The position numbers were made by a program, and so were the translations under genes. From assembly GCA_963681965.1 (NCBI GenBank), contig OY820579.1, positions 480,001 through 544,000 on the forward strand: DNA of 64,000 bases. Reading direction: 5' to 3'. Of the stretch, positions 10,431 to 57,508 are shown one piece after another. Positions within the stretch are counted from its first letter, which is position 1. Each line of letters starts with the position of its first letter. The notes below the pieces were generated by a model that did no database searches, was not told the DNA's origin, and worked only from the letters and a program-made list of their open reading frames with translations. The DNA comes from a bacterium (GTDB taxonomy: Bacteria; Electryoneota; JAOADG01).

Positions 10431-11228
10431 ATGTTAACCGGAAGACGGTCTGCAATTGGTATTGCGTTCCTTGTCGGGATTCTGCAGATAGCGCTGATGG
10501 GTTGCTCGAAATCGATCAAATATTATTCCGCATATAACCCGAACGACTACAAAATTGCGGCAGTTATTATACCGAGTGGACCCCAGCGTGAACTATTGGA
10601 TCGCTTATTCGATCAGATCGAAGAAGCACCATTTAAAGTCGTCTGGTTTCAGGAAAAAAGTCTTCGCAATTTACCGGGGATTGCTGCGATTTTGGATTCA
10701 ACGCACCGCATTACTCCTGAACTCGCAGCTCAAATTGCCAAATCGTGCAATGCGACTCTCGTGATCTATCAAGAACCGCAATTACCTATATCCAAATCTC
10801 ATCGACCACAACGTACCCAGCGCTCCGAAAGCGGTTCAACCCCTAATAATTTTGATTCGGATGCACCACCACCTGACGATTCGGAAACGGATCAACCGCC
10901 TGACGGTAAAGGCGAGAAACCGCAAGGCATGGGTGGTGGTCATCCGGGGGATTTCAGTGGCGGACAGCCGGGTGGAATGGGTGGACCCGGCGGAATGGGT
11001 CCTGGTGGTCAAGGCGGTAGTCGAGATGGAAAACGCGGCATGCCGGGGAGAGGTCCCGGTGGCATGGATCGGAAGAACCACCCCCGATCGGATGATCGAC
11101 CAATTCGCTTCAACGTAATCGATGTAACAAATGGATCGATGATCTGGCAACAAACAATCGAAGATGCGTCATCGAATTCCGAAATCAAGAAATTTGCCAA
11201 GCACCTTGTAACCGCTGGTAAACCTTGA
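10431..11228 (+). CDS. Hypothetical lipoprotein with Gly/Pro/Met-rich insert
   Basis: Lipobox LMGC; low-complexity GGMGGPGGMGPGG segment. Confidence 0.65.
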   Translation: MLTGRRSAIGIAFLVGILQIALMGCSKSIKYYSAYNPNDYKIAAVIIPSGPQRELLDRLFDQIEEAPFKVVWFQEKSLRNLPGIAAILDSTHRITPELAAQIAKSCNATLVIYQEPQLPISKSHRPQRTQRSESGSTPNNFDSDAPPPDDSETDQPPDGKGEKPQGMGGGHPGDFSGGQPGGMGGPGGMGPGGQGGSRDGKRGMPGRGPGGMDRKNHPRSDDRPIRFNVIDVTNGSMIWQQTIEDASSNSEIKKFAKHLVTAGKP

Positions 11229-12545: not shown

Positions 12546-12666
12546 TAATGATAGAATCAGGGTTACGCTTTTCAATTGAATATTCCAATGGTAGCATTCG
12601 CAATCTCGCATGCAATGCACTTCGGTAATCTCAGTAATGATCCATCATCAGACAAGGAAGTACATC

Positions 12667-14226
12667 ATGCTACCCAGAACTAAAATAAATTACTCGCATA
12701 TTTCCTGTTTCATCCTATTGCTTTTAGCAATCGCACAATTTGCAATTGCAGTACCCTATCCCGGCTATACGCTGTATTGTCCAAACAACGGTCGGTACAC
12801 TTATCTGAAGAACTTGAGCAACACGACGGTTCACAGTTGGACGCATTCTCGCAGCGGTGGCTACTCCTGCTACTTGCTCGAAAATGGCGACTTGATTCGA
12901 TCAGCCGTTTCTTCGAGCAGTTCGATGAATGGTGGCGGTGCCGAAGGGATCGTGCAGAAGTACAATTGGAGTGGAACGCTAATTTGGGAATACACTTATA
13001 GTACGACTACCTACCGGTCTCATCATGACATTTGTCCGATGCCGAACGGCAACGTGATTTTAATTGCATGGGAATCGAAAACTGCAGCACAGGCTGTCGC
13101 TGCGGGTTTAAGTAGAAGCTCGGCAATTTGGCCGGATCATTTGGTCGAAGTACAACCGAGTGGTTCCACCGGCGGTACGATCGTATGGCAGTGGCACGCA
13201 TGGGATCATTTAATTCAAGCGTACGATGCATCGAAAGCAAATTACGGCGTTATTGCCGATCATCCGGAATTGCTTAATCTTAATTGCGGCAGCAGCGGTG
13301 TCGGACCGGGTGGCGGTGATTGGATGCATGTCAATTCGGTTAGCTACAATCCCACATTGGATCAAATAACGTTCTCATCGCACAATTTGAATGAACTGTA
13401 TGTAATCGACCACAGTACAACTACCGCCGAAGCGGCAACCCATACTGGTGGTCGGTGGGGGCGCGGCGGCGATTTCTTGTATCGGTGGGGTAATCCGGCA
13501 AACTACGGCACAACCGGAACACAAGTTTTCGATGTCGTGCATTGTGCGTGGTGGGTTCCGGCTGGTTTACCGGGTGCCGGACATATTCTTGCATTCAACA
13601 ATCGCTCTTCATCATCAACGTCGATGATCGTCGAAATCGTACCGCCAATGGATACGCTTGGAAATTATACTCGCACGACACGCACTGCGTTTGGTCCAGC
13701 ATCTCCGGTGTGGAGCTACACCGCGACCGGGTTCTATTCGCAGCATCTCGGCGGCAATCAACGACTACCGAACGGCAATACGATGATCGCCGAAGCGACG
13801 AGTGGCAATCTCTTCGAAGTCGATTCCGCAGGTCGAACCGTTTGGAGTTACACACCCGGCGGTGAAATCGTACGTGTTTTACGATACGGTACCGAATATC
13901 CCGGCGTAGCAATTCTTGGCACTGAGGAGGAAGTTGCCGCACTTCCCAACTCCGTTCATTTACTTTCGAACTATCCCAATCCATTCAATTCATCTACCAA
14001 GATTAATATTAAAATCGATAAACTTGCTTCGGTAAAACTGTCGATCTATAACGCCAATGGCGAATTAATCAGCAAACTGGTCGATGGAAGACTCATTGCA
14101 GGCGATCACAATTTCGATTGGAATGGGAAAAACATGAATGGAATGTCGGTAAATTCCGGAGTTTATTTCTGCAGGCTTCAGTCCGGATCAACTGTGCAAA
14201 CTAGAAAATTGGTGCTAGTTAAATAA
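12667..14226 (+). CDS. Arylsulfotransferase (ASST) family beta-propeller with T9SS/FlgD-type C-terminal domain
   Basis: SHHDI, DWMHVNSVSY, LYRWGNP, QRLPNGNT; NYPNPFN C-terminus. Start after AAGGAAG RBS. Confidence 0.85.
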   Translation: MLPRTKINYSHISCFILLLLAIAQFAIAVPYPGYTLYCPNNGRYTYLKNLSNTTVHSWTHSRSGGYSCYLLENGDLIRSAVSSSSSMNGGGAEGIVQKYNWSGTLIWEYTYSTTTYRSHHDICPMPNGNVILIAWESKTAAQAVAAGLSRSSAIWPDHLVEVQPSGSTGGTIVWQWHAWDHLIQAYDASKANYGVIADHPELLNLNCGSSGVGPGGGDWMHVNSVSYNPTLDQITFSSHNLNELYVIDHSTTTAEAATHTGGRWGRGGDFLYRWGNPANYGTTGTQVFDVVHCAWWVPAGLPGAGHILAFNNRSSSSTSMIVEIVPPMDTLGNYTRTTRTAFGPASPVWSYTATGFYSQHLGGNQRLPNGNTMIAEATSGNLFEVDSAGRTVWSYTPGGEIVRVLRYGTEYPGVAILGTEEEVAALPNSVHLLSNYPNPFNSSTKINIKIDKLASVKLSIYNANGELISKLVDGRLIAGDHNFDWNGKNMNGMSVNSGVYFCRLQSGSTVQTRKLVLVK

Positions 14227-15270: not shown

Positions 15271-17643
15271 ATGAAAACCGCGTCCATGGTTCTCGGTTCG
15301 GCATTCATTCTAGCCATACTACTCTTGGCTCTACCGGAGCGATGTGACGCGGTTGTCATTAACGAGATTTTAGCGGACAATACTCAGACGATCCGCGATC
15401 AAAATGGAAATTACGACGACTGTATCGAGCTGTACAATCCATCCGATCAATCCGTCCGTCTGAGTGGTTATTTTCTCTCCGACCGACTAACCAATCATAC
15501 AAAATGGCAATTCCCCGATACATCCATCGCTGCTCATAGTTACCTGATTGTGTGGGCTGATAACGAACCAACGCAAACCGGTTTACATACCAATTTCGGA
15601 ATTTCCCGATCCAGCGAATCAATTATTTTCAGCGATGCACAAGCACGAATTGTCGATTCGATTTCCATCGGTATGCAGATGATGGATGTATCATTCGGAC
15701 GATTTCCCGATGGTTCTGGCGCATTCCGGTTTATGTATCCAACGATCGGGTATACGAACCGATTCGATGGTCCCGGTATTGTCGATCCGGCAGTCGATTT
15801 CTTCGGCGACACCACCATTTACCGTATTCGCCTCAGTTTTTATACACCGAAGTGGCGCGATTCACTTCAGTATAATTTCGAAGTGTTGAACAAACAGTAT
15901 ATGCCCGCACGAATGATTATCAACGATACCCTCGTGCTCGATAGTATCGGCATACGCTACAAAGGGAATTCATCTTATACCAACTCACGAAACACCCCGA
16001 AGAAACCATTGAAGATCAGCTTCAATCATTATAAAAGCGATCAAACGCTGGCGGGAATGCACCGCTTGAATTTTCATAACGGCGTCAGCGATCCCAGCTT
16101 TTTACGGGAAAATCTTGCATACAAAATCGCAAGACGATATCTCCCGGCATCGCGAACGGCATATGCCGATGTTTATGTAAACGACACGTTGCTGGGTTTT
16201 TATTCGTTAGTCGAACAAGTGGATAAAGTCTTTTTGAGCAAATTCTTTACTCACAATGGCGGCAACCTTTTTAAAGCATCGAATGACGGTGCATCACTGC
16301 AGTACCTCGGAACCAAAAAATCACCGTACAAGAATCAGTATGTGCTGAAAACGAATGAGGATCTTGACGACTGGTCCCATTTTATCAAATTAACCGACCT
16401 GCTTGCCAATACTCCCGATTCGGTTTTCATCGACACACTATCACGATATCTCGACCTCGATTGGTGCATTCACGCACTGGCGTTCAATACTGTATTATCG
16501 AATTACGACAGCTATACCGGTTCAGGAAGAAATTTCTATTTATACGACGATCCAACTTCTGGGTTGTTCCAATTCATTCCCTGGGATATGAACGAAGCAT
16601 TTGGCGTATACACCAATAGCTGGAATACAACCACTCAAGAAATCGTCAATGCATCGAATTTGGCGATACGTCCACTCGTTCGTCGAATCATGAGTAACGA
16701 TTCATTGCGATCCAATTACCTCCGGTATATCACCGAAATGAGCACCGGCATTGCCAGCTACGATTCGATCGCGATCATGGCAGACGCCTTTCACGCCGCG
16801 ATTGCCAGCCATGTTCTAGCAGATACGAACAAACTTTATAGCTCGCAATTCTTCATCGATAATCTGAATAGTAGTGTTACTGTAGGAATAGCTCGACAGA
16901 TTCCCGGCATAAAATCGTTTATTCGCGATCGATCGGCTAATATTCGCACACAACTGGCAAGCGAGTGGGTGTATCCCGGCGATACCGATGACAATGGGGT
17001 CGTCGATGCGTACGACATCGTTCCATTGGGTCTCTACTTTGCTGCTCAAGGAACAACCCGCACCAGTGGCAACAACACTTGGTTCATTCAACGTTCTGCA
17101 CCCTGGGGTAATCGCGCTACTACCTATGCCGATGCAAATGGCGACGGAATCGTCGATGAGCGCGATATCGTGGCAATCGGTATCAATTGGAACTGTCGTC
17201 ACCACATTTATTCCACTACTGCAACCATGAGTCGACTCGATCCTTCACTGGTATCATTACACCATGCCGATTTCCTGAGAATTTATCGCTCACTGTCCGG
17301 TGATAGTGAACCAATTCTGTCTATGAAAAAAGTGTTGGAAGAATTACTCGAAATTGAAGCTACGTCTATCGTTCCGATCGATTTTTCACTAGACCAGAAT
17401 TACCCGAATCCATTCAATAATTCGACGACGATTCGATTCGGATTACCCGCAAGCGGTCCGGTAAAATTATCGATTTACAATGCACTCGGCGAAAAGGTCG
17501 CAGAACCGTATGTACGCAAAAACGTCACTGCAGGTTATCATACTGCTGTGATCGATGCGCGAGAATTATCATCCGGACTCTATTTCTATCGCATCGAAAC
17601 CAATTCAGGCAGTAAACTGCGAAAAATGGTATTGGTGAAGTAG
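15271..17643 (+). CDS. CotH kinase family protein with lamin-tail domain, dockerin-like repeat and T9SS CTD
   Basis: VVINEILADN (LTD); GIRYKGNSS, DPSFLRE, YSLVEQVD, NFYLY, IPWDMNEAFG (CotH); GDTDDNGVVDAYD / ADANGDGIVDERD (dockerin); NYPNPFN. Confidence 0.9.
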   Translation: MKTASMVLGSAFILAILLLALPERCDAVVINEILADNTQTIRDQNGNYDDCIELYNPSDQSVRLSGYFLSDRLTNHTKWQFPDTSIAAHSYLIVWADNEPTQTGLHTNFGISRSSESIIFSDAQARIVDSISIGMQMMDVSFGRFPDGSGAFRFMYPTIGYTNRFDGPGIVDPAVDFFGDTTIYRIRLSFYTPKWRDSLQYNFEVLNKQYMPARMIINDTLVLDSIGIRYKGNSSYTNSRNTPKKPLKISFNHYKSDQTLAGMHRLNFHNGVSDPSFLRENLAYKIARRYLPASRTAYADVYVNDTLLGFYSLVEQVDKVFLSKFFTHNGGNLFKASNDGASLQYLGTKKSPYKNQYVLKTNEDLDDWSHFIKLTDLLANTPDSVFIDTLSRYLDLDWCIHALAFNTVLSNYDSYTGSGRNFYLYDDPTSGLFQFIPWDMNEAFGVYTNSWNTTTQEIVNASNLAIRPLVRRIMSNDSLRSNYLRYITEMSTGIASYDSIAIMADAFHAAIASHVLADTNKLYSSQFFIDNLNSSVTVGIARQIPGIKSFIRDRSANIRTQLASEWVYPGDTDDNGVVDAYDIVPLGLYFAAQGTTRTSGNNTWFIQRSAPWGNRATTYADANGDGIVDERDIVAIGINWNCRHHIYSTTATMSRLDPSLVSLHHADFLRIYRSLSGDSEPILSMKKVLEELLEIEATSIVPIDFSLDQNYPNPFNNSTTIRFGLPASGPVKLSIYNALGEKVAEPYVRKNVTAGYHTAVIDARELSSGLYFYRIETNSGSKLRKMVLVK

Positions 17644-20806: not shown

Positions 20807-20911
20807 TCTTGAAAATATGTTGTCATGATTCGGTGTCAGGCTTCGCCTGACCTGCGGGCGGACGCGGGGGTCCGCCCCTACTACCGATAACAACTCATTT
20901 TCAAGAGATAC
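20807..20911. repeat. Intergenic REP mosaic
   Basis: GTCAGGCTTCGCCTGAC and GGGCGGACGCGGGGGTCCGCCCCTAC, enclosed by TCTTGAAAAT...ATTTTCAAGA. Confidence 0.8.
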
Positions 20912-40326: not shown

Positions 40327-40353
40327 CCATCGATCAATTTAATACGAATGATG

Positions 40354-40380
40354 AAGCACCCGAATGGGTGCTTTTTTTTT
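40354..40380 (+). terminator. Intrinsic terminator
   Basis: AAGCACCC-GAAT-GGGTGCTT followed by T run. Confidence 0.85.
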
Positions 40381-40507
40381 GGGGGTAGAACAATTTTTAT
40401 TGCGGGACAATCGCAATCTTACTATTATAAATATAAATCCAATTCAGGGTGCTATGTGCCACTTCGATGAATTTCGTCGTTATCCGCCAGCTATTCATTT
40501 TGATTCT

Positions 40508-43297
40508 GTGCTTAACGTCAAGTGGTGCGCACACATCACGTTGATTGCACTTGTTATCGTTTTGTGCCTCTTTGGCAGCGCACCAGCGGTGAGTGTACAA
40601 TCGTCGCGCTTGCCGCATCCCTTCCAATTCACCGAGAACAAGGGGCAATGGGATTCCGCCGTTCTCTACAAGTGCGAAGTCCGACGCGACGGTTTCACCT
40701 GGTTTCTCGAGCGCGATGGTGTCACCCTCGTCACGAGCGTAATTGATTCCTCAAAAATGATAGACGCCAGTAGGGGCGGACCCCCGCATCCGCCCGTCGA
40801 TCCTTTTTCCAGTAGGGGCGGACCCCCGTGTTCGCCCGCAAACGGCAACGACGTTGCCGCCGTAGGGGCGTATGGCATACGCCCTGATCATGAATCCTTT
40901 CCATTAAAATCTCACGCCCTCAAATTCAAATTTGTTGACTCCCGTAGGGGCGAATCGCATTCGCCCCTATCCGATCAAGATGCACAAACCAATCTGGGCG
41001 CGTTCGCGCCCACAGGGCGTATGCGATACGCCCCTACGGATAAATGCACGACACAAGAGGATGTCGGAATAAATTCCGACCTACCCTTCGCACAAGCAAA
41101 ATCAATTGATGCACAGGGTGAATTATCGTGGCACAACAATTATTTCCTCGGGAATGACTCCTCAAAATGGGCACCGGATTGTCGGAATTTTACACGCGTG
41201 GTGTATCGCGAAGTGTGGGAGGGCATCGATATCGAATTCTATGAGAGCAAAGGACATCTCGAATTCGATTTTGTAGTGCATCTCGGTGCCGATCCCAAAC
41301 AAATCCGAATGGTGTGCGAAGGATTGGATGCGCCGATAGCAGGCGGAGGACGGACACTCTTGTCCGTCGACTCAATTATTTCTGTCACAAAAGGGAGTCG
41401 GACAGGAGTGTCCGACCTCCGATTATCGAATGAACTCACTCTTTCCACTTCCCTCGGTGAATTGCGGATGTCAATTCCGGGTGCATACCAAACCATTACT
41501 GATGGCACTCATGGAAACATTGTCACGGCACAATTCAGACTCGTGTCAGAAAATGTCTTCGCGATCAATTTGCCGAATGGGTACGATAACTCGCAGACGC
41601 TCCGAATCGATCCGTTGGTGTATAGTACCTATTTGGGTGGGAGTGCAGGAGATGAGGGGAAAGCTATTTGCAAATCAACAACTGGTAAAATTGTAGTTAC
41701 TGGCAATACGCATTGCAGTGACTTTCCAATTACAAGCGGTGCATACGATACAACTGTTTCTGCTATGGATATTTTTATCACTTCAATCAACTCTTTCGGT
41801 AATCAACTGCTATATAGTACTTTTCTCGGTGGTAGTGGCGATGATTATCCCGTCGGAATCTGTGCCGATCCAATTGATGGAATTATTGTTGTAGGTAGTA
41901 CTTATGGCTCCGATTTTCCAGTCTCTCAAGCAGCATTTGATAGAAATCCACCCTCAACACCTGATTCAAAGTGTATAATTACTCGTCTTAATGCAACAGG
42001 TTCGCAAATCATCTACAGCACGTATCTCGGAAGTATCTTTGCAATGCAATCTGCACAAGCTGTTATTAGTGATGAAACCGGTGGTGCTTACGTAACTGGG
42101 TACACTGAGGGTTTGAATTTTCCCTGTACTTCCGATGCTTATAGTACTCTGCCATTTTACAGTACCAATGTATTTCTTACTCACCTTAACAGTACTGGAT
42201 CGAACCTTATCTACAGTTCTTATTTTGGTGGAAATTCTCAAACGATCGCATATAAAATTGATTTTGATGACTCTGGAAGGGTAGCGATTGCTGGGATGAC
42301 AGCTAGTACAAATCTTCCGACAACATCCAATTGCTATAGTTCTCAGTTGCGTGGCGGTGGAAACTGTTTCCTTACAGTGTTTTCTACCGATTGCAGATCC
42401 CTTGCCTATAGTACTTATATCGGTGGAAATTGTACCGATCGAATCTATGGTCTATCAAATGACGGTCTCGGTGGTTGGTTTATCTCTGGAATTACTTGTA
42501 GTTCCGATTTTCGAGTATCTCCTCATGGTTACGACACGACCTATCATGGCGGTGAATTAGGTGATGCCTTCGTCGGACACATGACCTATACATCGACGGA
42601 ATCATCTTTCTTAAGCACATATATAGGTGGTAGCATGACCGACTACTCAACCAGTGCTCAGTTTAATCGACTCAATCATTGTGTTTATTCAGCTGGCGTA
42701 ACAGTCAGCACCGAATTCCCTGTCACGATCAACTCTTTCGATTCACTCTACAATGGTGGTGGTACTGACGGTTTCATCATGAAGTTTAACAGTACTTTGG
42801 ATACACTAATGTACAGTACATTTATCGGTGGCAATAATTACGATAATTGTGAAGGTTCGGTTTTAGTGGGTAGTGATACATTAGCGATTGTTGGCAGAAC
42901 GAATAGTACCAATTTCCCAGTGACCGGTTCTGCAATCGATAGCACGAATCAAGGCGGGTGGGATGCCTTTATCGTGAAGTTTATTACTTTGCCGGAATCG
43001 ACTGATGCAAATGAAGTAAAGTTAACGATTCTTCCGCAAAGCGCAAGCATTAAGGCTTTTCCGAATCCCTTCAACGCCACCACTACTCTTTCCTACACCC
43101 TTCCAATTTCATCTCACGTCGAGCTTTGTCTCTACGATCTCACCGGTCGCGAAGTATCGACACTCGTGCAGCGCGAGCAGCGTCCCGGAACGTATCGGGT
43201 ATTGCTCGACGGTTCACGATTAGCGAGCGGAACCTACTTTGTGCGATTGCAGGCAGGTACGTTTTCTAAGACGCAGAAGATTGTGCTATTGAAGTAA
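40508..43297 (+). CDS. Secreted SBBP beta-propeller protein with T9SS CTD, carrying in-frame REP insertions
   Basis: FTENKGQW, NYFLGND..KW, IDPLVYSTYLGG and repeated YSTxxGG; FPNPFN CTD. Start probably GTG 40508 or ATG 40453, because 40364 lies inside the terminator. Confidence 0.85.
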   Translation: MLNVKWCAHITLIALVIVLCLFGSAPAVSVQSSRLPHPFQFTENKGQWDSAVLYKCEVRRDGFTWFLERDGVTLVTSVIDSSKMIDASRGGPPHPPVDPFSSRGGPPCSPANGNDVAAVGAYGIRPDHESFPLKSHALKFKFVDSRRGESHSPLSDQDAQTNLGAFAPTGRMRYAPTDKCTTQEDVGINSDLPFAQAKSIDAQGELSWHNNYFLGNDSSKWAPDCRNFTRVVYREVWEGIDIEFYESKGHLEFDFVVHLGADPKQIRMVCEGLDAPIAGGGRTLLSVDSIISVTKGSRTGVSDLRLSNELTLSTSLGELRMSIPGAYQTITDGTHGNIVTAQFRLVSENVFAINLPNGYDNSQTLRIDPLVYSTYLGGSAGDEGKAICKSTTGKIVVTGNTHCSDFPITSGAYDTTVSAMDIFITSINSFGNQLLYSTFLGGSGDDYPVGICADPIDGIIVVGSTYGSDFPVSQAAFDRNPPSTPDSKCIITRLNATGSQIIYSTYLGSIFAMQSAQAVISDETGGAYVTGYTEGLNFPCTSDAYSTLPFYSTNVFLTHLNSTGSNLIYSSYFGGNSQTIAYKIDFDDSGRVAIAGMTASTNLPTTSNCYSSQLRGGGNCFLTVFSTDCRSLAYSTYIGGNCTDRIYGLSNDGLGGWFISGITCSSDFRVSPHGYDTTYHGGELGDAFVGHMTYTSTESSFLSTYIGGSMTDYSTSAQFNRLNHCVYSAGVTVSTEFPVTINSFDSLYNGGGTDGFIMKFNSTLDTLMYSTFIGGNNYDNCEGSVLVGSDTLAIVGRTNSTNFPVTGSAIDSTNQGGWDAFIVKFITLPESTDANEVKLTILPQSASIKAFPNPFNATTTLSYTLPISSHVELCLYDLTGREVSTLVQREQRPGTYRVLLDGSRLASGTYFVRLQAGTFSKTQKIVLLK
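40770..41420. repeat. Intragenic REP palindromes (at least 8)
   Basis: GTAGGGGCG-type at 40770, 40812, 40862, 40944 and 41015-41037 (reverse); GTCGGAATAAATTCCGACCTAC at 41063; GGAG-type pair at 41345 and 41397-41420. Confidence 0.88.
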
Positions 43298-43310: not shown

Positions 43311-43600
43311 GTAGTAGCGGGCTCGTGAGCCCTCCCGATTTTTGGTAGCGGCGGACTTTAGTCCGCCATTCCTGAAAAATTAAAAAAAAAGCGGACTTTA
43401 GTCCGCCACTACCAACGGAAAAGATAGATTGCTTCGTCTCTTCGGGCGCATCCGCCAGCCGGCGGACGCCCTTCGTTCCTCGCAACGACAAATCAGGATA
43501 CAGGATTCAAGATAAAGAATACAGGATACAAGAGCGGGCGCCCGCGGGGAGGCGCCCCTACTACAAGATAAAAAAAAGGTCGGAATAAATTCCGACCGAC
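43311..43600. repeat. Intergenic REP mosaic (BIME-like)
   Basis: Pair of GCGGACTTTAGTCCGC; GATTGCTTCG...CCTCGCAACGAC; CAGGATA-like heptamer run; GGGCG...CGCCCCTAC; GGTCGGAATAAATTCCGACC. Confidence 0.85.
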
Positions 43601-44913: not shown

Positions 44914-44942
44914 GTAGTGATTATGTTTCGTTCTTTATCGTA

Positions 44943-45053
44943 GTGCCGATTTCGAATCGGCATTGTGTTTAAAAAATTTTTCTATCATAGGAGGTGGGAC
45001 TTTAGTCCCGCCTAACATTTGCAGATAGATGGCGGCACTAAAGTGCCACCTCC
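44943..45053. repeat. REP doublet (GGAG family)
   Basis: GGAGGTGGGACTTTAGTCCCGCC ... GGCGGCACTAAAGTGCCACCTCC in inverted orientation, plus palindrome TGCCGATTTCGAATCGGCA. Confidence 0.8.
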
Positions 45054-45064
45054 GCAATGATTTA

Positions 45065-46333: not shown

Positions 46334-46591
46334 GAGTCCCTCCGGCGGAGGTTAAGAGTGTTTCGCCAATAGCTTTCGCTTCCTGTAACTAGGGTTGCAC
46401 GAATATACAAAAAAACCGTGTGCTGTCATAAGTACGTAGCGATGCAGTGAAATTGCTGATTCTCCGTCATGGAAGCGTGTAATATGTGCCGCAACCAGAA
46501 CACTCAATGTAAGATTGATCAAATCTGATCTATTGAGTGAAAACCAAGCGATCACAGCGGTTGGGCGTTAATCTGACGTTGCTATTTTTTT

Positions 46592-46653
46592 GTCAGGCTA
46601 AAGCCCAACCTCCGCGTGCAGAAGTTGATTTGTCAGGCTAAAGCCTGACCTCC
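46592..46653. repeat. REPs at RAYT1 3' end (GGAGGTCAGGCTTTAGCCTGAC)
   Basis: Two tandem copies; one contains the RAYT stop codon. Confidence 0.85.
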
Positions 46654-47121
46654 GATGCTAATTGATTCTGGAACGATGGTAAATGGATATTCATCTATTT
46701 CCGAAACAAGTCGCTGTTTTACTGGATTCATCAGGATATATGTCCATACTTCGTCGAATTCTCCCTGATTGCGAATGATGCGATCGAAAGTTTCATTCAG
46801 CCATATTGAACCGCTTCGATGATTATATTGGTTTATTTTCAGTGAACTCACACCTTTCCAATATTTGACAATTTTTAATAGAGATTGCCAATTTCCGGGT
46901 GATACTTCTAGTGGCTGAGTAATTACATGAACGTGATCGGGCATAATACAGGCAATAAATAGGCGATACTCTATTTGGTTTTTACTGAGCAATACTTCCT
47001 GAATAATCGATTTTTCAGCGTCGGAAAACAAGTAATTTTTTGTCCGGAAAGTAGCGAAATATATCGAACCAGTGAGTTCCCAATGAGGAAGGTACCGTCG
47101 TCTTATCGTTAATCCGTTCAT
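46633..47121 (-). mobile_element. REP-associated tyrosine transposase (RAYT/Y1) 1
   Basis: LPHW, YFATFRT, HUH motif IMPDHVH, DRIIRN, catalytic YILMNPVK; flanked by REPs. Confidence 0.9.
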
Positions 47122-47191
47122 CTGAATGCCGATTTAGTTAGACGGATGTGTATCCGATGTAAGTCTGTAGTATGTTGGTTGTAAGTTAGTT

Positions 47192-47287
47192 GTATGTCGG
47201 AATTTATTCCGACTCTTTTTTCGTAATCACTTGTTAAAAAAACGAAAAAGAAAACACTCTCAAGAGTCGGAATAAATTCCGACATAC
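47192..47287. repeat. REPIN doublet GTATGTCGGAATTTATTCCGAC
   Basis: Inverted pair with ~50 bp spacer; same core as at 41063 and 43578. Confidence 0.85.
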
Positions 47288-47301
47288 GGATCCGTGCATC
47301 G

Positions 47302-49350: not shown

Positions 49351-49655
49351 AAAAAAATCTCAATAATCCCCGCACGAATCTTCCTTACCGTAGGTCAGAA
49401 CTTGTTCGAACCAATTGCGGTTCCTTCATTTTTTCTTTTTTAAATAAATGGAAAAGATAGTGGTCAGAACAAGTTCTGACCTACGGAAAAGAAGCGATTC
49501 AATCATTTAACCATTTTGGACCTACGAAACAAGCGCCACCGCCCTAAAACAAAATTCTCAATATTCTCGCACGAATCTTCCTTACCGTAGGTCAGAACAA
49601 GTTCTGACCTACGGAAAAGAAACGACTCGATCATTTAACCCATCTTCGACCTACC
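49351..49655. repeat. Two tandem REPIN units (GTAGGTCAGAACTTGTTCTGAC)
   Basis: Full doublet 49390-49484 and collapsed copy 49587-49612, each with the same flanking sequence. Confidence 0.88.
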
Positions 49656-50124
49656 GAAGAGATTCTCTTTCCGGTATTATAGTAAACGGGTATTCCTCGA
49701 TTTGCGAAACAATGCCAGCCTTAACTGGATTCATTACGATATAATTCCACGTTTCATCGAAATCTTGTTGATTGCGAATGATATGATCGTAAGAATCAGT
49801 CTGCCATATCCGACCAGATCGATGGTGCAATTTATTAATTCGAATTGCGCTTGCCCCTTTCCATCGCTTCATGATTTGGGAAATCGACTTCCAATTCCCG
49901 CGAGGTATTTCGATCGGTTGAACAATGGCATGAACATGATCTGGCATGATACAGGCAACATATAACAGATATTCGATTTGATGCCCGCTTAATAGTAGCG
50001 ATCGGATAATGTCCAGATCGGGGTAAGTGAATCGGTATGCTTTAGTTCTAAAGGTTACAGCGTAAACCGAACCTTTGAGTTCCCAGTGCGGCAAGTGGCG
50101 GTAACGAATGGTTAACTCACTCAT
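49651..50124 (-). mobile_element. REP-associated tyrosine transposase (RAYT/Y1) 2
   Basis: LPHW, TFRT, IMPDHVH, IWQ..SYDHIIRN, YIVMNPVKAG. Confidence 0.92.
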
Positions 50125-50213
50125 AATCTTTTCCGGCTAGTGTAAATATGTTTAAACTTTATTTATATTATAATAAACCTATAGTCATTCGCAAGAGTCT
50201 GTGCATTTAAATT

Positions 50214-50380
50214 AAAAAATCTCAATTTCCGCGCGAATCTTCCTTACCGTAGGTCAGAACTTGTTCTGACCAATTGCAGTTCCTTCATTTTTTTTTATAA
50301 ATAAATGGAAAAGATAATGGTCAGAACAAGTTCTGACCTACGGAAAAGAAGCGATTCGACTATTCAAACCATCTTGACCG
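50214..50380. repeat. Third REPIN unit, direct repeat of 49351..49520
   Basis: CGAATCTTCCTTACCGTAGGTCAGAAC...GTTCTGACCTACGGAAAAGAAGCGATTC shared with the first copy. Confidence 0.88.
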
Positions 50381-50520
50381 TCTTAAAACGCACTCAAGAA
50401 AAAACGGGAATTATTAATCAGAAGATCAACATACGATTTCATCGGATTCCTAGGATTGAAATTTCTCGCATTCTCGACAATTGCCTTGCCCCCGCCCCCC
50501 TCATTTTCGTATATATAGAC

Positions 50521-50994
50521 ATGAAAAAGTTTCTGCTTCTTTTGCTTCTTCTCTTCGCCGGACTCGCATTCGCTATGCCGGAACAAGCGCAGCGCGTCAA
50601 GATCGGGAAAGCTACCGCCGTACTCGAAATCGCCGATGAGCAAGCCGAAATTGTCCAAGGTCTGTCCGATCGTACCGAACTCGCCCCCGATCACGGCATG
50701 TTGTTTGTTTTCCCCGACACTTCCCGCCGCTCGTTCTGGATGTACCACTGCAATTTCGATATCGACCTTGCCTACGTCGCACCCGACGGCACGATCCGCG
50801 AAACTCTGACGATGTACCTGGAACAGTACGACACTCCGCCCGAATTGCTGACCGTCTATCCGTCGAAAGCCGCCGATATCCAGTATGTCATCGAAATGCC
50901 CTCGGGCTGGTTCGAGACGCATGGCGTCAAAGCCGGACAAAAAGCCGATGTCACCCGCTTCAAATCGAAAGTAACCGACAAAACCTTCAAATAA
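50521..50994 (+). CDS. DUF192 family protein
   Basis: Signal peptide; LEIAD, GL..R, GMLFVF, FWM, YVIEM..GWF. Confidence 0.88.
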   Translation: MKKFLLLLLLLFAGLAFAMPEQAQRVKIGKATAVLEIADEQAEIVQGLSDRTELAPDHGMLFVFPDTSRRSFWMYHCNFDIDLAYVAPDGTIRETLTMYLEQYDTPPELLTVYPSKAADIQYVIEMPSGWFETHGVKAGQKADVTRFKSKVTDKTFK

Positions 50995-52804: not shown

Positions 52805-53010
52805 ATATCTCTTGAAAATACGTTATTATCGGTAGTAGGTGCGGATCCTCGCATCCACCCGCTTTTTTTATTCCGTAGGGGCGAATCGCATTCGCCCGTT
52901 CTTGTATCTTTTGTATTCCTGTATCTTGCAGTAGGGGCGGGCTCCCATGCCCGCCCGCAGATATTTGTAAGTACAGACACTCCTGTCTGTACATGTTCGG
53001 CAAAGCCGAA
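52805..53010. repeat. Intergenic REP mosaic
   Basis: GTAGGTGCGGATCC..., GTAGGGGCGAATCGCATTCGCCC (identical to 40944), GTAGGGGCGGGCTCCC..., GTACAGACACTCCTGTCTGTAC, GTTCGGCAAAGCCGAAC. Confidence 0.85.
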
Positions 53011-54991: not shown

Positions 54992-56539
54992 TTACTTTGT
55001 TAGTGTCATTTTCTTGGTCGAGGTGAAGCCCGGTGTCTGCAACGTATAGAAATAGTTTCCAGCCGGAAGGTTCGACGCGTCGAATTGGACGTTGTGACGC
55101 CCTTGCGATTGATTGCGATCCACCAACACCGCGATCGTTTGTCCTAATACGTTCTGAACTGTTAGCTTTACTGCCCCTTCGGTACCGACACTGTAGAATA
55201 TATCGGTAGTCGGGTTGAACGGATTCGGATAATTCTGAGCCAAACCATAGCGACCGATGATTGCGACATTATGCTGGGTCTGAGTTGGTGTTGCGTTCAC
55301 GATATTCGTATGAACAGCTTCGCGTCCGTCGAGATCGATATCGGAAATGCGGTAATAATACGTAGTTCCATTGGTGACGCGGGAATCCCGGAAACGGTAA
55401 TTATGTGCCACTGGGCTGTTCAATGCACCGGGAACTGCGGTGATCTGTTCGCCGATTTCGCCAATAACTGTTGAGCGGTAAATGCGGAAACTGGCGTTGT
55501 TTGTTTCCGACTCCGTATGCCATGCGAGATCGACATAACCTTCCCCGGCATTGGCAGTGAACGATGTCATTTCAACCGGCAAGAGACCGTCGGTAATCAT
55601 ATCCGACGAGGCGTACGCCAGTGAGTTACCGACCCCATTGAATGCCCATACCCGGAACCAATAATGTGTACTCGGTGTCAAACCGGTTACATCGAGATAC
55701 AGCTCGTCAACACTGGCATCGCCCCAAGGTGAGAAACTGGAACCATCGGTCGAAATAAAGACATGGAAACCGGTTTCGTTGTTGGCGTTATCGGTCCAAC
55801 CGAAGCGCATACCGGAAATAGTAACATTTGTGATCGTACCAGCGGTCGGCGATTCCGGCAGCGTGTCGAGCGTTGTCTGGTTTGCGATATTGGTGTAGTT
55901 CGAGAACTGAGTTCCACCGGTATTGAATGCTCTAACTCGATACCAGTACTGAGTCACAGTATTCAATCCGGTAACGTCGAGAAAGTTGACATCATACGAT
56001 GTCGTACCAGCCAGTGAATTTGTTGTGGCAAAGTTATCAGTCGAAATATAAACTTCGAAGCCTTCTTCGTTGGCAGAATTATCTGTCCAGCTAACTTGTT
56101 GCGAAGTTGCTGCATTCAAAATTACTTGGCAGACCGACGGATCGGCTGGGGGAACGTCGATCGTGGTATTGCCCATCGCGACGTAACCGGGTGCCGAAGT
56201 AGTGCTGTTGCCACTGGCATTGTGCGAATAAACACGGAATGAATAGAACGTGTTTGGGTTTAGGCCTGTGACGGAATAATTATATGTAGTATTAATCGAA
56301 GCAACAGTGGTGGAAACAACCGAAGTTAAAAAACTATAACCTCCGCCCAACCCGGCGTCCCAATAGATATAGAACGAGGTTTCGTTGTTGGATTTATCGA
56401 CCCAGTGCAAATCCATTGAATTGGTCGTGACGTTATCGATCTGAGTAACACTGGCTCCGGGACGGATTGGTTGAGCAAACACTATGCTCGCCGCGGCAAT
56501 CAGTATGAATGCGAATACAGCTTTAAGCGAATTCTTCAT
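54992..56539 (-). CDS. Secreted triple-FN3 protein with T9SS CTD
   Basis: MKNSLK signal peptide; three W.D.S.NE.GF...GL...Y.FRV FN3 units; LPVEMTSF; NYPNPFNP. Confidence 0.88.
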   Translation of the reverse strand: MKNSLKAVFAFILIAAASIVFAQPIRPGASVTQIDNVTTNSMDLHWVDKSNNETSFYIYWDAGLGGGYSFLTSVVSTTVASINTTYNYSVTGLNPNTFYSFRVYSHNASGNSTTSAPGYVAMGNTTIDVPPADPSVCQVILNAATSQQVSWTDNSANEEGFEVYISTDNFATTNSLAGTTSYDVNFLDVTGLNTVTQYWYRVRAFNTGGTQFSNYTNIANQTTLDTLPESPTAGTITNVTISGMRFGWTDNANNETGFHVFISTDGSSFSPWGDASVDELYLDVTGLTPSTHYWFRVWAFNGVGNSLAYASSDMITDGLLPVEMTSFTANAGEGYVDLAWHTESETNNASFRIYRSTVIGEIGEQITAVPGALNSPVAHNYRFRDSRVTNGTTYYYRISDIDLDGREAVHTNIVNATPTQTQHNVAIIGRYGLAQNYPNPFNPTTDIFYSVGTEGAVKLTVQNVLGQTIAVLVDRNQSQGRHNVQFDASNLPAGNYFYTLQTPGFTSTKKMTLTK

Positions 56540-57508
56540 TAATGGTCCTTTCCGAAAAGTTATTTCGATAACAGGCGCTATCGATTGATTGCGGCAATGA
56601 TTGTTCGTCATTGCAGCATTAATGTGATTTATAACAGACACTTAGCAGACTCTCGCCAATTACTATCAAGATCGCTACCGATTTTTTTATCCAACTCCGG
56701 TAAGTAGTACCCACCCGATAGCGCTAGTTATGGCGTTGAGTTATTGTCTTGCGACAGTAATCGATCAACATATTCTGATACGGTGATAGATTTAATATAA
56801 TTGGGTTAATATACCGTCTGATTGGTTTGATGAATGTGTGAAATAGGCTATGTAATGCACTAAATAATGGTTGTTTATATTTGGCGTGTCGAAAAATAAA
56901 TACAATAACCCGGGTAAATATTATTGAAGTGAATTGTAAAATAGGGTATTATAATTGAATTCTATATCGATATACTCAACACTGGCGGCAAATGCGCAAT
57001 AGTTAACACTGAATTATATAAATGAGCGATCAACTGTGCATAAAACTGTGATGATTATAAGAGGTATTTTGCGAGAAATTCGAACAAATTATTTATAATA
57101 CTCCCCGAGATCTTGCAGATTCGCCGGATTGGTCTACGAAGGAAAGCCCTTCAAGAAGAATACATATTTTCTTGAATGTAAATATATATTGTGGGGTGGA
57201 ATGTTGCGGTTTATTATCTGAAATAATTCTAGAAGTGGATGATAAAGATTGAATTATCGCTATAGATTATGTAATAGCGTTCTATGTGTTCACGAGACAT
57301 AGTTCAATAATGCACATAGGGTATATTGTAGAGAGGCTTCGTGGTGTTGCACTGCGCAAAGTTCCCACGATCAATTTTTGATAGACACAACCAGAAAAAA
57401 GATTTTACGACTTCGTAAAGGGTCGATATTCCTGTTTTCGGACAGCGTGAACAATCAGAAGCGAATTCTGGAGAAGAAATCGAGAGTTGTTGTTCTAGAA
57501 ACGAAGAT

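What the first reader, a model, noticed from the sequence alone, without database searches (positions are those of the whole stretch)
40765..41425. At least eight REP palindromes from three families inserted in frame in an intact secreted protein
Seen: REPs also found between genes (GTAGGGGCGAATCGCATTCGCCC is identical at 40944 and 52875; GTCGGAATAAATTCCGAC occurs at 41063, 43579 and 47266) lie inside the ORF in three clusters (~40765-40890, ~40940-41090, ~41340-41425). They translate as SRGGPPHPP, SRGGPPCSP, VGAYGIRP, RRGESHSP, GRMRYAPT, VGINSDL, GGRTLLSV and SRTGVSDL. No stop or frameshift occurs, and the clusters fall between conserved blocks of the N-terminal domain. Known: REPs are almost always extragenic; Rickettsia palindromic elements are the main in-frame precedent. 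Inference: RAYT-driven insertion adds roughly 120 aa to tolerant loops and may diversify a surface protein or tune its mRNA.
Basis: partly seen in the sequence, partly recalled or inferred. Interest (0 to 1): 0.82.

Follow-up and report, generated by a model that had tools for sequence, protein, structure and literature searches.

The report
REP hairpin arrays translated inside protein loops
A secreted bacterial protein carries about ten copies of a mobile "extragenic" DNA hairpin inside its coding sequence, read in frame as three floppy surface loops, and its roughly 25 sister genes each carry a different mix of them.

Summary
ORF 40364-43297 (+, 977 aa) encodes a DUF7948 domain, SBBP beta-propeller repeats and a T9SS sorting tail. 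It holds eight tetranucleotide-headed REP hairpins and two unheaded ones in three clusters, with no stop or frameshift. The same elements occur between genes. Two REP-associated tyrosine transposase (RAYT) genes flanked by related REPs lie 5-9 kb downstream.

The clusters match the three low-confidence loops of an AlphaFold model, and an insert-free relative folds compactly. The protein collection holds 19 full-length paralogues from one 4.34 Mb contig, and each has a different combination of REP-derived peptides at the same three sites. These combinations do not follow the tree of the C-terminal part. At least five further copies are broken, mostly at site 2. Relatives at 33-52% identity carry other GC-rich hairpins in the same loops.

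My best reading is selfish REP arrays that colonise and turn over in tolerant loops, filtered for open frame. RAYT action itself is not shown.

In-frame REPs are already published (Rickettsia RPEs; Di Nocera 2013), so this is an extreme, family-wide variant and not a new principle. Expression, paralogue DNA and the genome-wide REP distribution stayed unchecked.

The parts
40364..43297 (+). Host gene, 977 aa as listed. It has a signal-peptide-like N-terminus, a DUF7948 domain (about aa 84-420), SBBP beta-propeller repeats and a T9SS C-terminal sorting domain (aa 899-974). The real start is probably ATG 40454 or GTG 40508.
   Evidence: The terminator of the upstream AlgH-like gene (40353-40374) overlaps the first ATG.
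40770..40796 (+). REP 1, family A: GTAG head, GGGCGGA / TCCGCCC stem. Read as SRGGPPHPP (aa 136-144).
40812..40838 (+). REP 2, family A, one stem mismatch. Read as SRGGPPCSP (aa 150-158).
40843..40859 (.). Unheaded 8-bp hairpin CGGCAACG-A-CGTTGCCG, read as part of GNDVAA. It travels with REP 3 as one unit in the paralogues that carry REP 3.
40862..40885 (+). REP 3, family A, 9-bp perfect stem. It is read in the other open frame as VGAYGIRP (aa 167-174). In the RNA fold it pairs over a long range with REP 5.
40944..40967 (+). REP 4, family A. Its first 23 nt are identical to the intergenic copy at 52875-52897. Read as RRGESHSP (aa 194-201).
40995..41012 (.). Unheaded 8-bp hairpin TGGGCGCG-TT-CGCGCCCA in the spacer of the REP 4 / REP 5 inverted pair.
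41015..41037 (-). REP 5, family A in reverse orientation (ends in CTAC). Read as GRMRYAPT (aa 218-225). With REP 4 it forms an inverted dimer.
41063..41084 (-). REP 6, family B (GTAG GTCGGAAT TT ATTCCGAC on the minus strand). Read as VGINSDL (aa 234-240). The 18-mer is identical at 43579, 47266 and 47196, the last two beside a RAYT gene.
41345..41368 (+). REP 7, family C (GGAG head). Read as GGRTLLSV (aa 328-335).
41397..41420 (-). REP 8, family C in reverse orientation. Read as SRTGVSDL (aa 345-352). It pairs with REP 7 into one long REPIN-like hairpin (-47.9 kcal/mol, z = -5.9).
43312..43597 (.). Intergenic REP array just downstream of the gene. It holds GTAG-headed hairpins, a long CRCEER-type palindrome, a (CAGGATA)x5 heptamer run, a reversed family A REP and a family B REP. 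Its order matches the long site-2 insert of paralogues P0004, P0007 and P0010.
46636..47121 (-). RAYT gene 1 (162 aa). GGAG GTCAGGCT TT AGCCTGAC REPs lie on its 3' side (46590-46653). An inverted pair of family B REPs lies on its 5' side (47192-47213 and 47266-47287).
   Evidence: Pfam Y1_Tnp 26.8 bits against cutoff 23. NCBIfam REP_Tyr_transpos 78.9 bits, just under the cutoff of 80. Flanks.
49654..50124 (-). RAYT gene 2 (157 aa). It is flanked on both sides by GTAG GTCAGAAC TT GTTCTGAC REPs, at 49463, 49587/49591, 50249 and 50320.
   Evidence: NCBIfam REP_Tyr_transpos 94.3 bits against cutoff 80. Pfam Y1_Tnp 30.2 bits. Flanks.
52875..52956 (+). Intergenic family A REPs at 52875-52897 and 52931-52956. 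Translated on either strand they give RRGESHSP, GRMRFAPTE and SRGGLPCPPA, which are exactly the peptides found in paralogue inserts.
20856..20881 (-). Intergenic family A REP. Translated, it gives SRGGPPRPPA.

Best explanation
Region 40765-41425 is genuine coding sequence of a T9SS-secreted DUF7948/SBBP protein. Arrays of REP hairpins of the GTAG-tagged kind have become part of the reading frame in it. These elements normally live between genes and are associated with RAYT transposases. They occupy three surface loops of the N-terminal beta-rich domain and are translated into Gly/Arg/Pro/Ser-rich, probably disordered segments. The host gene belongs to a family of about 25 copies in one genome.

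Proposed sequence of events:
1. REP units and whole REP arrays are gained, lost and exchanged at these three sites much faster than the rest of the gene changes.
2. Copies in which an event breaks the frame become pseudogenes.
3. Copies that stay open persist.

Shown: the anatomy, the loop location, the family-wide mosaic, the fast turnover, the broken copies and the presence of RAYTs.

Inferred: that the elements arrive by RAYT-type single-strand transposition and/or recombination with other REP arrays, that they are largely neutral passengers, and that the protein is made with them.
For: Real gene:
- DUF7948 matches at E 8e-43, split into 3 stretches, together with SBBP and Por_Secre_tail.
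- Blocks conserved across phyla lie upstream of, between and downstream of the clusters.

Real REPs:
- GTAGGGGCG occurs 9 times against 0.15 expected.
- Identical copies occur between genes.
- All 8 elements have a head plus an 8-10 bp stem plus a short loop.
- No GTAG-headed hairpin lies inside any of the other ~50 genes of the window.
- Two RAYT genes are flanked by REPs of the same build.

Loop location:
- The model of aa 76-470 has pLDDT 73.9 and pTM 0.71. Its low-confidence stretches are exactly the three clusters.
- The insert-free relative L003 gives pLDDT 89.2 and pTM 0.85 with no internal stretch below 50.
- The core spacings are constant at 52 and 51-52 aa. Site 1 spans 65-122 aa, site 2 spans 22-146 aa and site 3 spans 28-158 aa.

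Inserts are intergenic-type DNA:
- Paralogue insert peptides match translated intergenic REPs of the window. Examples are GRMRFAPTE at 9 of 9 residues and RRGESHSP, which are the two strands of one REP. RIQDTR...VGINSD is collinear with 43516-43596.

Mosaic and turnover:
- All 19 full-length paralogues have different motif combinations.
- On the C-terminal tree, 8 of 13 motifs need as many changes as their rarer state has members, which is the maximum. These include VGAYGIRP (4 of 4) and CRCEERSEG (5 of 5).
- Pairs that are 90-93% identical over about 560 C-terminal residues, with 0-1 gap columns there, differ by 47-104 gap columns in the N-domain.

Filter by frame:
- N-terminal fragments P0123, P0128, P0144 and P0145 end in or at site 2.
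- P0029, P0050 and P0127 start downstream of site 2.

Same behaviour in relatives, seen in DNA:
- In MAG loci L004, L006, L007, L008 and L010, the site-2 segment is 153 nt against 90 nt in L003. The extra 63 nt include a GTAG...CTAC REP dimer of 50-52 nt, and two different dimers occupy the same loop.
- Hairpin density in the N-domain against the rest of the locus is 5.68 vs 0.11 per kb in the window, 0.71 vs 0.09 in the MAG, 1.04 vs 0.35 in Caldithrix-like loci and 0.04 vs 0.02 in Chitinophagales.
Against: - No expression data exist, so translation through the hairpins is inferred from conservation only.
- Paralogue DNA of the source genome could not be fetched, because the genome is absent from genome contigs. 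Insert borders, target duplications and synonymous rates in that genome are therefore unseen.
- No RAYT for family A is in the window.
- Family C has no copy outside the gene within 3 mismatches.
- Pure neutrality is strained in two ways. First, REP density in this domain (5.7 per kb) exceeds that of the rest of the window, intergenic DNA included. Second, the REP arms are more conserved than their surroundings. The site-3 arms are 100% and 96.9% identical among 15 carriers, against 69% for the spacer and 81-92% for the cores. One REP is 100% identical in 4 MAG copies whose flanks differ at synonymous sites.
- For RRGE, PQSARRRQ and GRMxxAPT, only 3-6 of 200 label shuffles were as low as the observed change count, so part of the pattern is plain inheritance.
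Confidence: 0.7

Rival explanations
1. Selected diversification. The three loops are a conserved landing pad, and REP arrays serve as swappable cassettes or recombination handles. They give each member of a surface or secreted protein family different exposed loops. Heptamer runs inside the arrays might add on/off switching.
For: - Every paralogue has a different combination of inserts.
- Insert pattern is uncoupled from the C-terminal tree.
- Near-identical C-terminal parts carry N-domains that differ by 47-104 gap columns.
- The same loops carry unrelated hairpins in relatives at 33-52% identity.
- Hairpin density exceeds that of the rest of each locus.
- Heptamer runs occur at 43494-43530, and they sit at the frame breaks in L005 and L011.
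Against: - There is no functional or population data.
- The loops are predicted to be disordered, with no sign of a binding surface.
- Relaxed constraint on a 25-copy family plus clustering of REPs explains the same data.
- The frame breaks in MAG contigs may be assembly errors.
Confidence: 0.18
2. The hairpins act at the nucleic-acid level within this mRNA or gene. They could stabilise the mRNA, pause ribosomes between sub-domains of a secreted protein, or bind a protein. The encoded peptides would then be a by-product.
For: - The RNA is very strongly structured: -151.4 kcal/mol with z = -8.2 for 40760-41095, and -47.9 kcal/mol with z = -5.9 for 41335-41430.
- REP arms are more conserved than spacers and than flanking synonymous sites.
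- No sense-strand terminator-like site lies inside the gene.
Against: - Paralogues P0018 and P0011, and relative L003, lack most or all of the hairpins yet are intact.
- Arm conservation is equally explained by recent copying or gene conversion.
- No Rfam family matches anywhere in the window.
Confidence: 0.08
3. Not a functional coding feature. The gene would be a pseudogene, or translation would start after the inserts, or the region would be misassembled.
For: - At least five same-genome copies are fragments.
- MAG assemblies often break at these sites: L006-L010 all end there.
Against: - The frame is open for 977 aa.
- The block FTENKGQWD...LERDGVTL, conserved across phyla, and a signal-peptide-like segment both lie upstream of all the inserts.
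- 19 copies keep the frame through different inserts.
- The protein was seen on a 4.34 Mb contig.
Confidence: 0.04

Closest known systems
Intragenic GTAG/CGTC-tagged REPs (Di Nocera et al. 2013, BMC Genomics 14:522, PMC3733652)
   Same: - Short GTAG-headed palindromes, single or as inverted dimers, lie in frame within genes for known proteins and are thought to sit in tolerant regions.
- RAYT genes are flanked by REPs.
- Their Additional file 3 (part 1 of 3 read) lists different REP families at similar residue numbers in several Opitutus terrae ASPIC/UnbV-domain proteins: Oter_0490, 0491, 1795, 1797 and 2953.
   Different: - In the rows I read, an ORF has at most two REP-bearing intervals.
- The paper's text gives 20-30 aa for most inserts and 43-82 aa for the largest clusters.
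- Here one domain holds 8 headed and 2 unheaded hairpins at three sites (about 112 aa).
- The pattern runs through 19 intact and at least 5 broken paralogues with a different mosaic in each.
- It recurs in relatives at 33-52% identity.
Rickettsia palindromic elements (RPE; Ogata et al. 2000; recalled, and cited as refs 13-14 in PMC3733652 and in PMC3184786)
   Same: A palindromic repeat is inserted in frame in functional genes, and it is proposed to land in surface-exposed parts without destroying the fold. This case works like an RPE.
   Different: - RPEs are about 105-146 bp single units (table in PMC3184786), one per site, in an obligate intracellular alpha-proteobacterium and in many unrelated genes.
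- Here the units are 22-27 bp REPs with RAYTs present, stacked in arrays and concentrated in one gene family.
- No sequence comparison with RPEs was made.
REPINs and BIMEs (Bertels and Rainey 2011, PMC3116915; search listing and abstract only)
   Same: - Two REPs in inverted orientation with a short spacer fold into one long hairpin. The site-3 pair does this.
- Mixed REP types alternate with spacer motifs, as in the arrays at site 2 and at 43312-43597.
   Different: REPINs and BIMEs are described as extragenic. Here the units are translated.
MITEs fused in frame to genes (reviewed by Delihas 2011, PMC3184786; passages read)
   Same: Small non-autonomous repeats are found fused within or at the ends of ORFs.
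   Different: MITEs have terminal inverted repeats and target duplications and are 70-400 bp long. The units here are REP hairpins with tetranucleotide heads. No clear target duplication was seen in the one filled-versus-empty comparison.

Membership tests
REP (GTAG-tagged repetitive extragenic palindrome) | Short (20-40 bp) imperfect palindrome | tested here: met
   Eight elements of 22-27 nt have 7-11 bp stems and 1-8 nt loops.
REP (GTAG-tagged repetitive extragenic palindrome) | Conserved tetranucleotide head (GTAG or a degenerate form) at one end | tested here: met
   A GTAG head is present on 6 of the 8 elements and a GGAG head on the 2 at site 3. Degenerate heads are accepted in PMC3733652.
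REP (GTAG-tagged repetitive extragenic palindrome) | Many copies per genome, mostly between genes | tested here: inconclusive
   In the 64 kb window, families A and B have intergenic copies. Family C does not, within 3 mismatches. The whole genome could not be examined.
REP (GTAG-tagged repetitive extragenic palindrome) | A cognate RAYT gene flanked by the REPs | tested here: inconclusive
   Met for family B: its 18-mer flanks the RAYT gene at 46636-47121. A second RAYT at 49654-50124 is flanked by a related family. No RAYT for family A lies in the window.
REPIN | Two REPs in inverted orientation with a short spacer that fold into one long hairpin | tested here: met
   The site-3 pair 41345-41420 folds as a single hairpin at -47.9 kcal/mol, z = -5.9. 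The site-2 pair 40944-41037 is inverted but its two arms differ.
RAYT (REP-associated tyrosine transposase) | Match to the curated family model above its cutoff | tested here: met
   The gene at 49654-50124 scores 94.3 bits against NCBIfam NF047646 (cutoff 80). The gene at 46636-47121 scores 78.9, just under the cutoff, but passes Pfam Y1_Tnp at 26.8 bits against 23. Catalytic residues were not inspected.
Rickettsia palindromic element (RPE) | Sequence membership in one of the RPE families (about 100-150 bp units) | not tested
   No RPE sequence was compared. Unit size (22-27 nt) and taxon differ, so only the behaviour is alike.
MITE | Terminal inverted repeats with a flanking target-site duplication | tested here: inconclusive
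   L003 (empty) against L010 and L004 (filled) shows a 63-nt difference containing a 50-52 nt GTAG...CTAC dimer and no clear direct repeat. Only the related MAG could be examined.
DUF7948 / SBBP / T9SS type A cargo protein (host gene) | Pfam DUF7948 and SBBP plus a T9SS C-terminal sorting domain, each above its cutoff | tested here: met
   DUF7948 scores 147.3 bits (cutoff 27), SBBP 32.8 (cutoff 20.5) and Por_Secre_tail 37 (cutoff 27). TIGR04183 scores 42.2 (cutoff 23).

The most novel reading that the evidence does not exclude
The three DUF7948 loops are an evolutionarily persistent landing pad. REP arrays are recruited there as a diversity-generating device for a T9SS-secreted protein family. 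Palindromic units would act as portable homology for cassette exchange among about 25 paralogues. Heptamer runs within the arrays would provide frame switching. Under this reading 'selfish' REPs have been put to use as hypervariable protein loops across a Calditrichota-like clade.
Probability: 0.18. Interest if true: 0.8.

Novelty: new variant of a known kind. Interest (0 to 1): 0.55.

Why it matters
REPs and REPINs are treated as extragenic elements, and in-frame cases are seen as rare accidents. Here a whole gene family carries stacked REP arrays in frame at three fixed loops. Turnover at these loops is faster than point divergence, and the same habit appears in relatives down to about 35% identity.

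This gives a natural system for three questions:
- How often do REP insertions survive in coding DNA?
- Do RAYT-type elements target existing hairpins?
- Can selfish palindromes seed new protein segments?

There is also a practical point. Such loci break short-read assemblies: MAG contigs L006-L010 all end at these sites. They also inflate counts of "hypothetical" peptides.

Tried and rejected
- **Source-genome paralogue DNA.** The single genome-contig scan returned no locus above 52% identity. All nucleotide-level statements about paralogues therefore come from a related MAG.
- **Fold search.** The N-domain model gave 0 PDB matches at E <= 0.001. The best was E 0.07, to GH97 N-terminal domains, so no fold assignment was made.
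- **Rfam.** The whole window gave 0 matches at gathering score.
- **Tandem repeats.** None were found inside the gene at score 30 or more. There is only the intergenic (CAGGATA)x5 run.
- **Insert stretch as a protein query.** The 112-aa stretch (aa 132-243) searched against longer proteins gave 12 hits at E <= 1 among 128 candidates, all paralogues on the same contig. This is weak evidence that other families lack such arrays, because a single 9-aa REP match cannot reach that E-value.
- **Failed script.** One script failed through my own faulty pattern. It was redone.
- **Diversity-generating retroelement.** I considered this and dropped it. No reverse transcriptase appears among the 51 other ORFs scanned.
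- **Hairpins as sense-strand terminators.** I considered this and dropped it. No such site lies inside the gene on the + strand.
- **Literature.** Seven searches found no paper on REPs in DUF7948/SBBP proteins or on a paralogue-wide REP mosaic. 'DUF7948' occurs in no held paper.
- **Not used.** The search of protein representatives, complex prediction and the protein-atlas tools were not used.
Full report
**1. What is there**

The region lies in one open frame, 40364-43297 on the + strand, 977 aa.
- Pfam finds DUF7948 (E 8.4e-43, matched in three separate stretches), an SBBP beta-propeller repeat and the T9SS C-terminal sorting domain. NCBIfam confirms the T9SS tail.
- The first ATG overlaps the terminator hairpin and T-run of the upstream AlgH-like gene at 40353-40374. 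Paralogue N-termini are 25-40 residues shorter. The real start is therefore probably ATG 40454 or GTG 40508.
- Both candidate starts lie upstream of a signal-peptide-like segment and of all the inserts.

**2. The hairpins**

Scans for inverted repeats find ten GC-rich hairpins between 40770 and 41420.
- Eight carry a tetranucleotide head followed by an 8-10 bp stem and a 1-8 nt loop.
- Five are GTAG GGGCG...CGCCC (family A). Four are forward and one is reversed.
- One is GTAG GTCGGAAT TT ATTCCGAC, reversed (family B).
- Two are GGAG G(A/T)CGGACA..., one forward and one reversed (family C).
- Two further hairpins have no head (40843-40859 and 40995-41012).
- Forward family A units are read in both stop-free frames, as SRGG.../RRGE... 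and as VGA.... The third frame would read TAG.

Tests against chance:
- GTAGGGGCG occurs 9 times against 0.15 expected, and 0 of 100 shuffles reach 9.
- The 23-mer at 40944 recurs unchanged at 52875.
- The family B 18-mer recurs at 43579, 47196 and 47266.
- Family C has no other copy within three mismatches in the window.

GC content is 0.67, 0.56 and 0.54 in the three clusters, against 0.37-0.48 in the domain blocks between them and 0.44 in the rest of the gene.

**3. REPs elsewhere in the window, and RAYTs**

My catalogue of headed hairpins has 31 rows.
- 9 rows (8 elements) are in this gene.
- 14 rows are intergenic.
- 2 rows sit at gene edges. One overlaps the stop codon of a RAYT gene. 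The other lies in the doubtful 5' end of ORF 50305-50994.
- 6 rows lie in other genes. These have GTAT or GGAG heads and stems unlike any family, and are probably chance.
- No GTAG-headed hairpin lies inside any of the other ~50 ORFs.
- The four other T9SS cargo genes of the window carry no GTAG-headed or family-like hairpin. The one catalogue row in them is a GTAT-headed, non-family hairpin in 54995-56641.

Two small ORFs are REP-associated tyrosine transposases.
- 49654-50124 scores 94.3 bits against NCBIfam REP_Tyr_transpos (cutoff 80).
- 46636-47121 scores 78.9 bits, just below that cutoff, but passes Pfam Y1_Tnp.
- Each is flanked by REPs of the same build.
- The flanks of the first include the family B 18-mer found inside the gene.
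- No RAYT for family A is in the window.

**4. The inserts sit in loops**

An alignment with in-genome paralogues and outside relatives places the three clusters at three length-variable sites between invariant blocks.
- Site 1 lies between LERDGVTL and KSHALKF.
- Site 2 lies between HALKFKF and WHNNYFLGND.
- Site 3 lies between GADPxQI...EGL and PTSLGELR.
- The core spacings are fixed at 52 and 51-52 residues. Site 1 spans 65-122 aa, site 2 spans 22-146 aa and site 3 spans 28-158 aa.

Structure predictions agree.
- AlphaFold2 on aa 76-470 with 114 aligned sequences gives pLDDT 73.9 and pTM 0.71. Strands score above 90. Low-confidence stretches fall at model residues 61-100, 121-160 and 251-280, which are ORF residues 136-175, 196-235 and 326-355. 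These are the three clusters.
- The most compact relative is the L003 N-domain, 251 aa with no inserts. It gives pLDDT 89.2 and pTM 0.85 with the same order of strands and no internal segment below 50.
- No solved structure matches at E <= 0.001.

**5. A family-wide mosaic**

The protein search lists 21 of its top 120 hits on one 4,339,467-nt contig. Of these, 19 are full length (844-1018 aa). The 'shorter' search adds seven more, six of them fragments and one a divergent 374-aa form.
- Each of the 19 full-length copies has a different combination of REP-derived motifs.
- P0018 has only one motif.
- P0004, P0007 and P0010 carry a site-2 insert of about 70 further residues.
- The insert peptides match translated intergenic REPs of this window. 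SRGGPPRPPA is at 20853-20882. RRGESHSP and GRMRFAPTE are the two strands of the REP at 52871-52900, the second at 9 of 9 residues. SRGGLPCPPA is at 52930-52959. RRWDFSPA is at 44980-45012.
- The order RIQDTR, reversed REP, VGINSD is collinear with the array at 43516-43596, just downstream of the gene.

**6. Turnover**

A tree was built from the C-terminal 560-odd residues (19 paralogues, 4 outgroups, quick method).
- 8 of 13 motifs need the maximum possible number of changes, that is, as many as their rarer state has members. These are VGAYGIRP, VIA-type, GAGLRAC, GGSRTAPT, CRCEERSEG, GGRTLLSV absence, RRWDFSP and, by one short, SRGG.
- Against this, for RRGE, PQSARRRQ and GRMxxAPT only 3-6 of 200 label shuffles were as low as the observed change count, so these three follow the tree in part.
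- Pairs with 90-93% identity and 0-1 gap columns in the C-terminal part differ by 47-104 gap columns in the N-domain.

Indels are thus concentrated at the three sites and are uncoupled from the rest of the gene. The cause is recurrent gain and loss, recombination between paralogues, or both. I cannot tell these apart without the DNA.

**7. Broken copies**

- P0123 ends just after RRGESHSPL, P0128 ends just after site 2 and P0145 ends at the start of site 2.
- P0144 shifts frame inside the long site-2 insert.
- P0121 is intact through the N-domain and breaks later.
- P0029, P0127 and P0050 begin downstream of site 2.

So at least five copies are disrupted, four of them at site 2. The sites are mutational hot spots, and open frames among the other 19 imply a filter. 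That in turn implies the genes are used.

**8. Relatives**

The source genome is not in the genome collection. The nearest loci come from one MAG at 39-52% identity (L001-L011), followed by Caldithrix-like MAGs at 33-37%.
- In the MAG, GTAG GGGCG REPs lie inside the homologous ORFs at sites 2 and 3.
- Against the empty site 2 of L003 (90 nt), five copies have 153 nt. The extra 63 nt hold a head-out REP dimer of 50-52 nt. Two different dimers occupy the loop in different copies.
- One REP is identical in four copies whose flanks differ at synonymous positions.
- In the source genome the site-3 arms are 100% and 96.9% identical among 15 of 20 copies, against 69% for the spacer and 81-92% for the cores.
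- Caldithrix-like loci L012, L013 and L017 carry pairs of 9-10 bp-stem hairpins at sites 1 and 3. L017 also has a pair at a fourth site inside the core and a perfect 28-nt GTAG...CTAC palindrome at site 3.

Density of hairpins with stem >= 8 and GC >= 0.6, N-domain against the rest of the locus:

| Source | N-domain (per kb) | Rest (per kb) |
|---|---|---|
| Window | 5.68 | 0.11 |
| MAG L001-L011 | 0.71 | 0.09 |
| Caldithrix-like loci | 1.04 | 0.35 |
| 26 Chitinophagales-type loci | 0.04 | 0.02 |

The habit therefore belongs to a clade and not to the domain family as a whole.

**9. RNA**

- The sense strand of 40760-41095 folds at -151.4 kcal/mol (z = -8.2, 0 of 100 shuffles as good). REP 3 pairs with REP 5 across the conserved block.
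- 41335-41430 folds as one long hairpin at -47.9 kcal/mol (z = -5.9).
- No terminator-like site lies on the sense strand inside the gene.
- No Rfam family matches in the window.

**10. Comparison with what is known**

- In-frame palindromic repeats are known from Rickettsia. I recall the RPE papers, and they are cited in PMC3733652 and PMC3184786 (passages read).
- Di Nocera et al. 2013 (PMC3733652; abstract, passages, and part 1 of 3 of Additional file 3 read) report GTAG and CGTC REPs inside genes of several species. Most are dimers of 20-30 aa, and the largest clusters are 43-82 aa.
- Their table shows different REP families at similar residue numbers in several O. terrae ASPIC/UnbV-domain proteins. 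This is a small-scale precedent for a paralogue hot spot.
- What is different here is degree and pattern: ten hairpins at three loops of one domain, whole intergenic-type arrays in frame, a distinct mosaic in every one of 19 intact copies, fast turnover, and recurrence across relatives.
- My seven literature searches found no description of this. Subscription journals are largely outside the library.

**11. Verdict**

Tolerant loops, variable in-frame inserts and resident RAYTs are shown. RAYT causation, adaptive diversification and mRNA tuning are not.
- I rate it a new variant of a known kind, with interest 0.55.

**12. What stayed unchecked**

- Paralogue DNA of the source genome.
- The genome-wide REP distribution.
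- Any expression or read data.
- The closed metagenome and viral collections.
- Parts 2-3 of the cited supplement.

Noticed in passing
window 46540-47300 and 49400-50360: There are two 'REPtrons'. Each is a RAYT gene (46636-47121 and 49654-50124, both on the minus strand) flanked by its own REP family in both orientations. They lie only 2.5 kb apart and 5-9 kb downstream of the REP-laden gene.
   Followed up: partly
window 43312-43597: The intergenic array downstream of the gene holds several headed hairpins, a long palindrome that translates as CRCEER..., and a (CAGGATA)x5.3 heptamer run at 43494-43530. The same order of motifs is translated inside paralogues P0004, P0007 and P0010. P0144 loses its frame next to the corresponding heptamer-derived peptide.
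   Followed up: partly
L005 2150-2260 and L011 10540-10600: In the related MAG, two paralogues switch reading frame exactly at runs of a 7-nt repeat (CCATCCA-like, read as HPPSTIH) inside variable sites 2 and 3. This could be slipped-strand on/off switching or a short-read assembly error.
   Followed up: partly
L006-L010 (3' ends of contigs): Five MAG contigs end inside or just after the variable sites of this gene family. The REP arrays appear to break short-read assemblies.
   Followed up: no
L016 and L017, about 10450-10600: Caldithrix-like homologues have a fourth insertion site inside the otherwise constant core, between VDVVWRG and EFDF. In L017 it holds a hairpin pair. In L016 it holds a repeated ESLIIPS(Q/K)DGI(H/Q)S peptide that also occurs at site 1.
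   Followed up: no
window 176-1987, 12610-14223, 15271-17640, 54995-56641: Four further ORFs carry the T9SS sorting domain, so the window is rich in T9SS cargo. They are a CarboxypepD_reg protein, an arylsulfotransferase-like protein, a CotH/LTD protein and an fn3 protein. None contains a REP of the families described.
   Followed up: partly
window 50305-50994: The listed start of this DUF192 ORF lies within a REP (50320-50341), and the Pfam domain begins only at residue 107. The true start is probably further downstream and the REP is extragenic.
   Followed up: no
window 44914-45064: The spacer between the Nramp and MgtE-like genes holds a GTAG-headed hairpin (44940) and an inverted pair of GGAG-headed hairpins (44990 and 45032). 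Translated, it gives RRWDFSPA, which is the site-3 variant of paralogues P0008 and P0014.
   Followed up: partly
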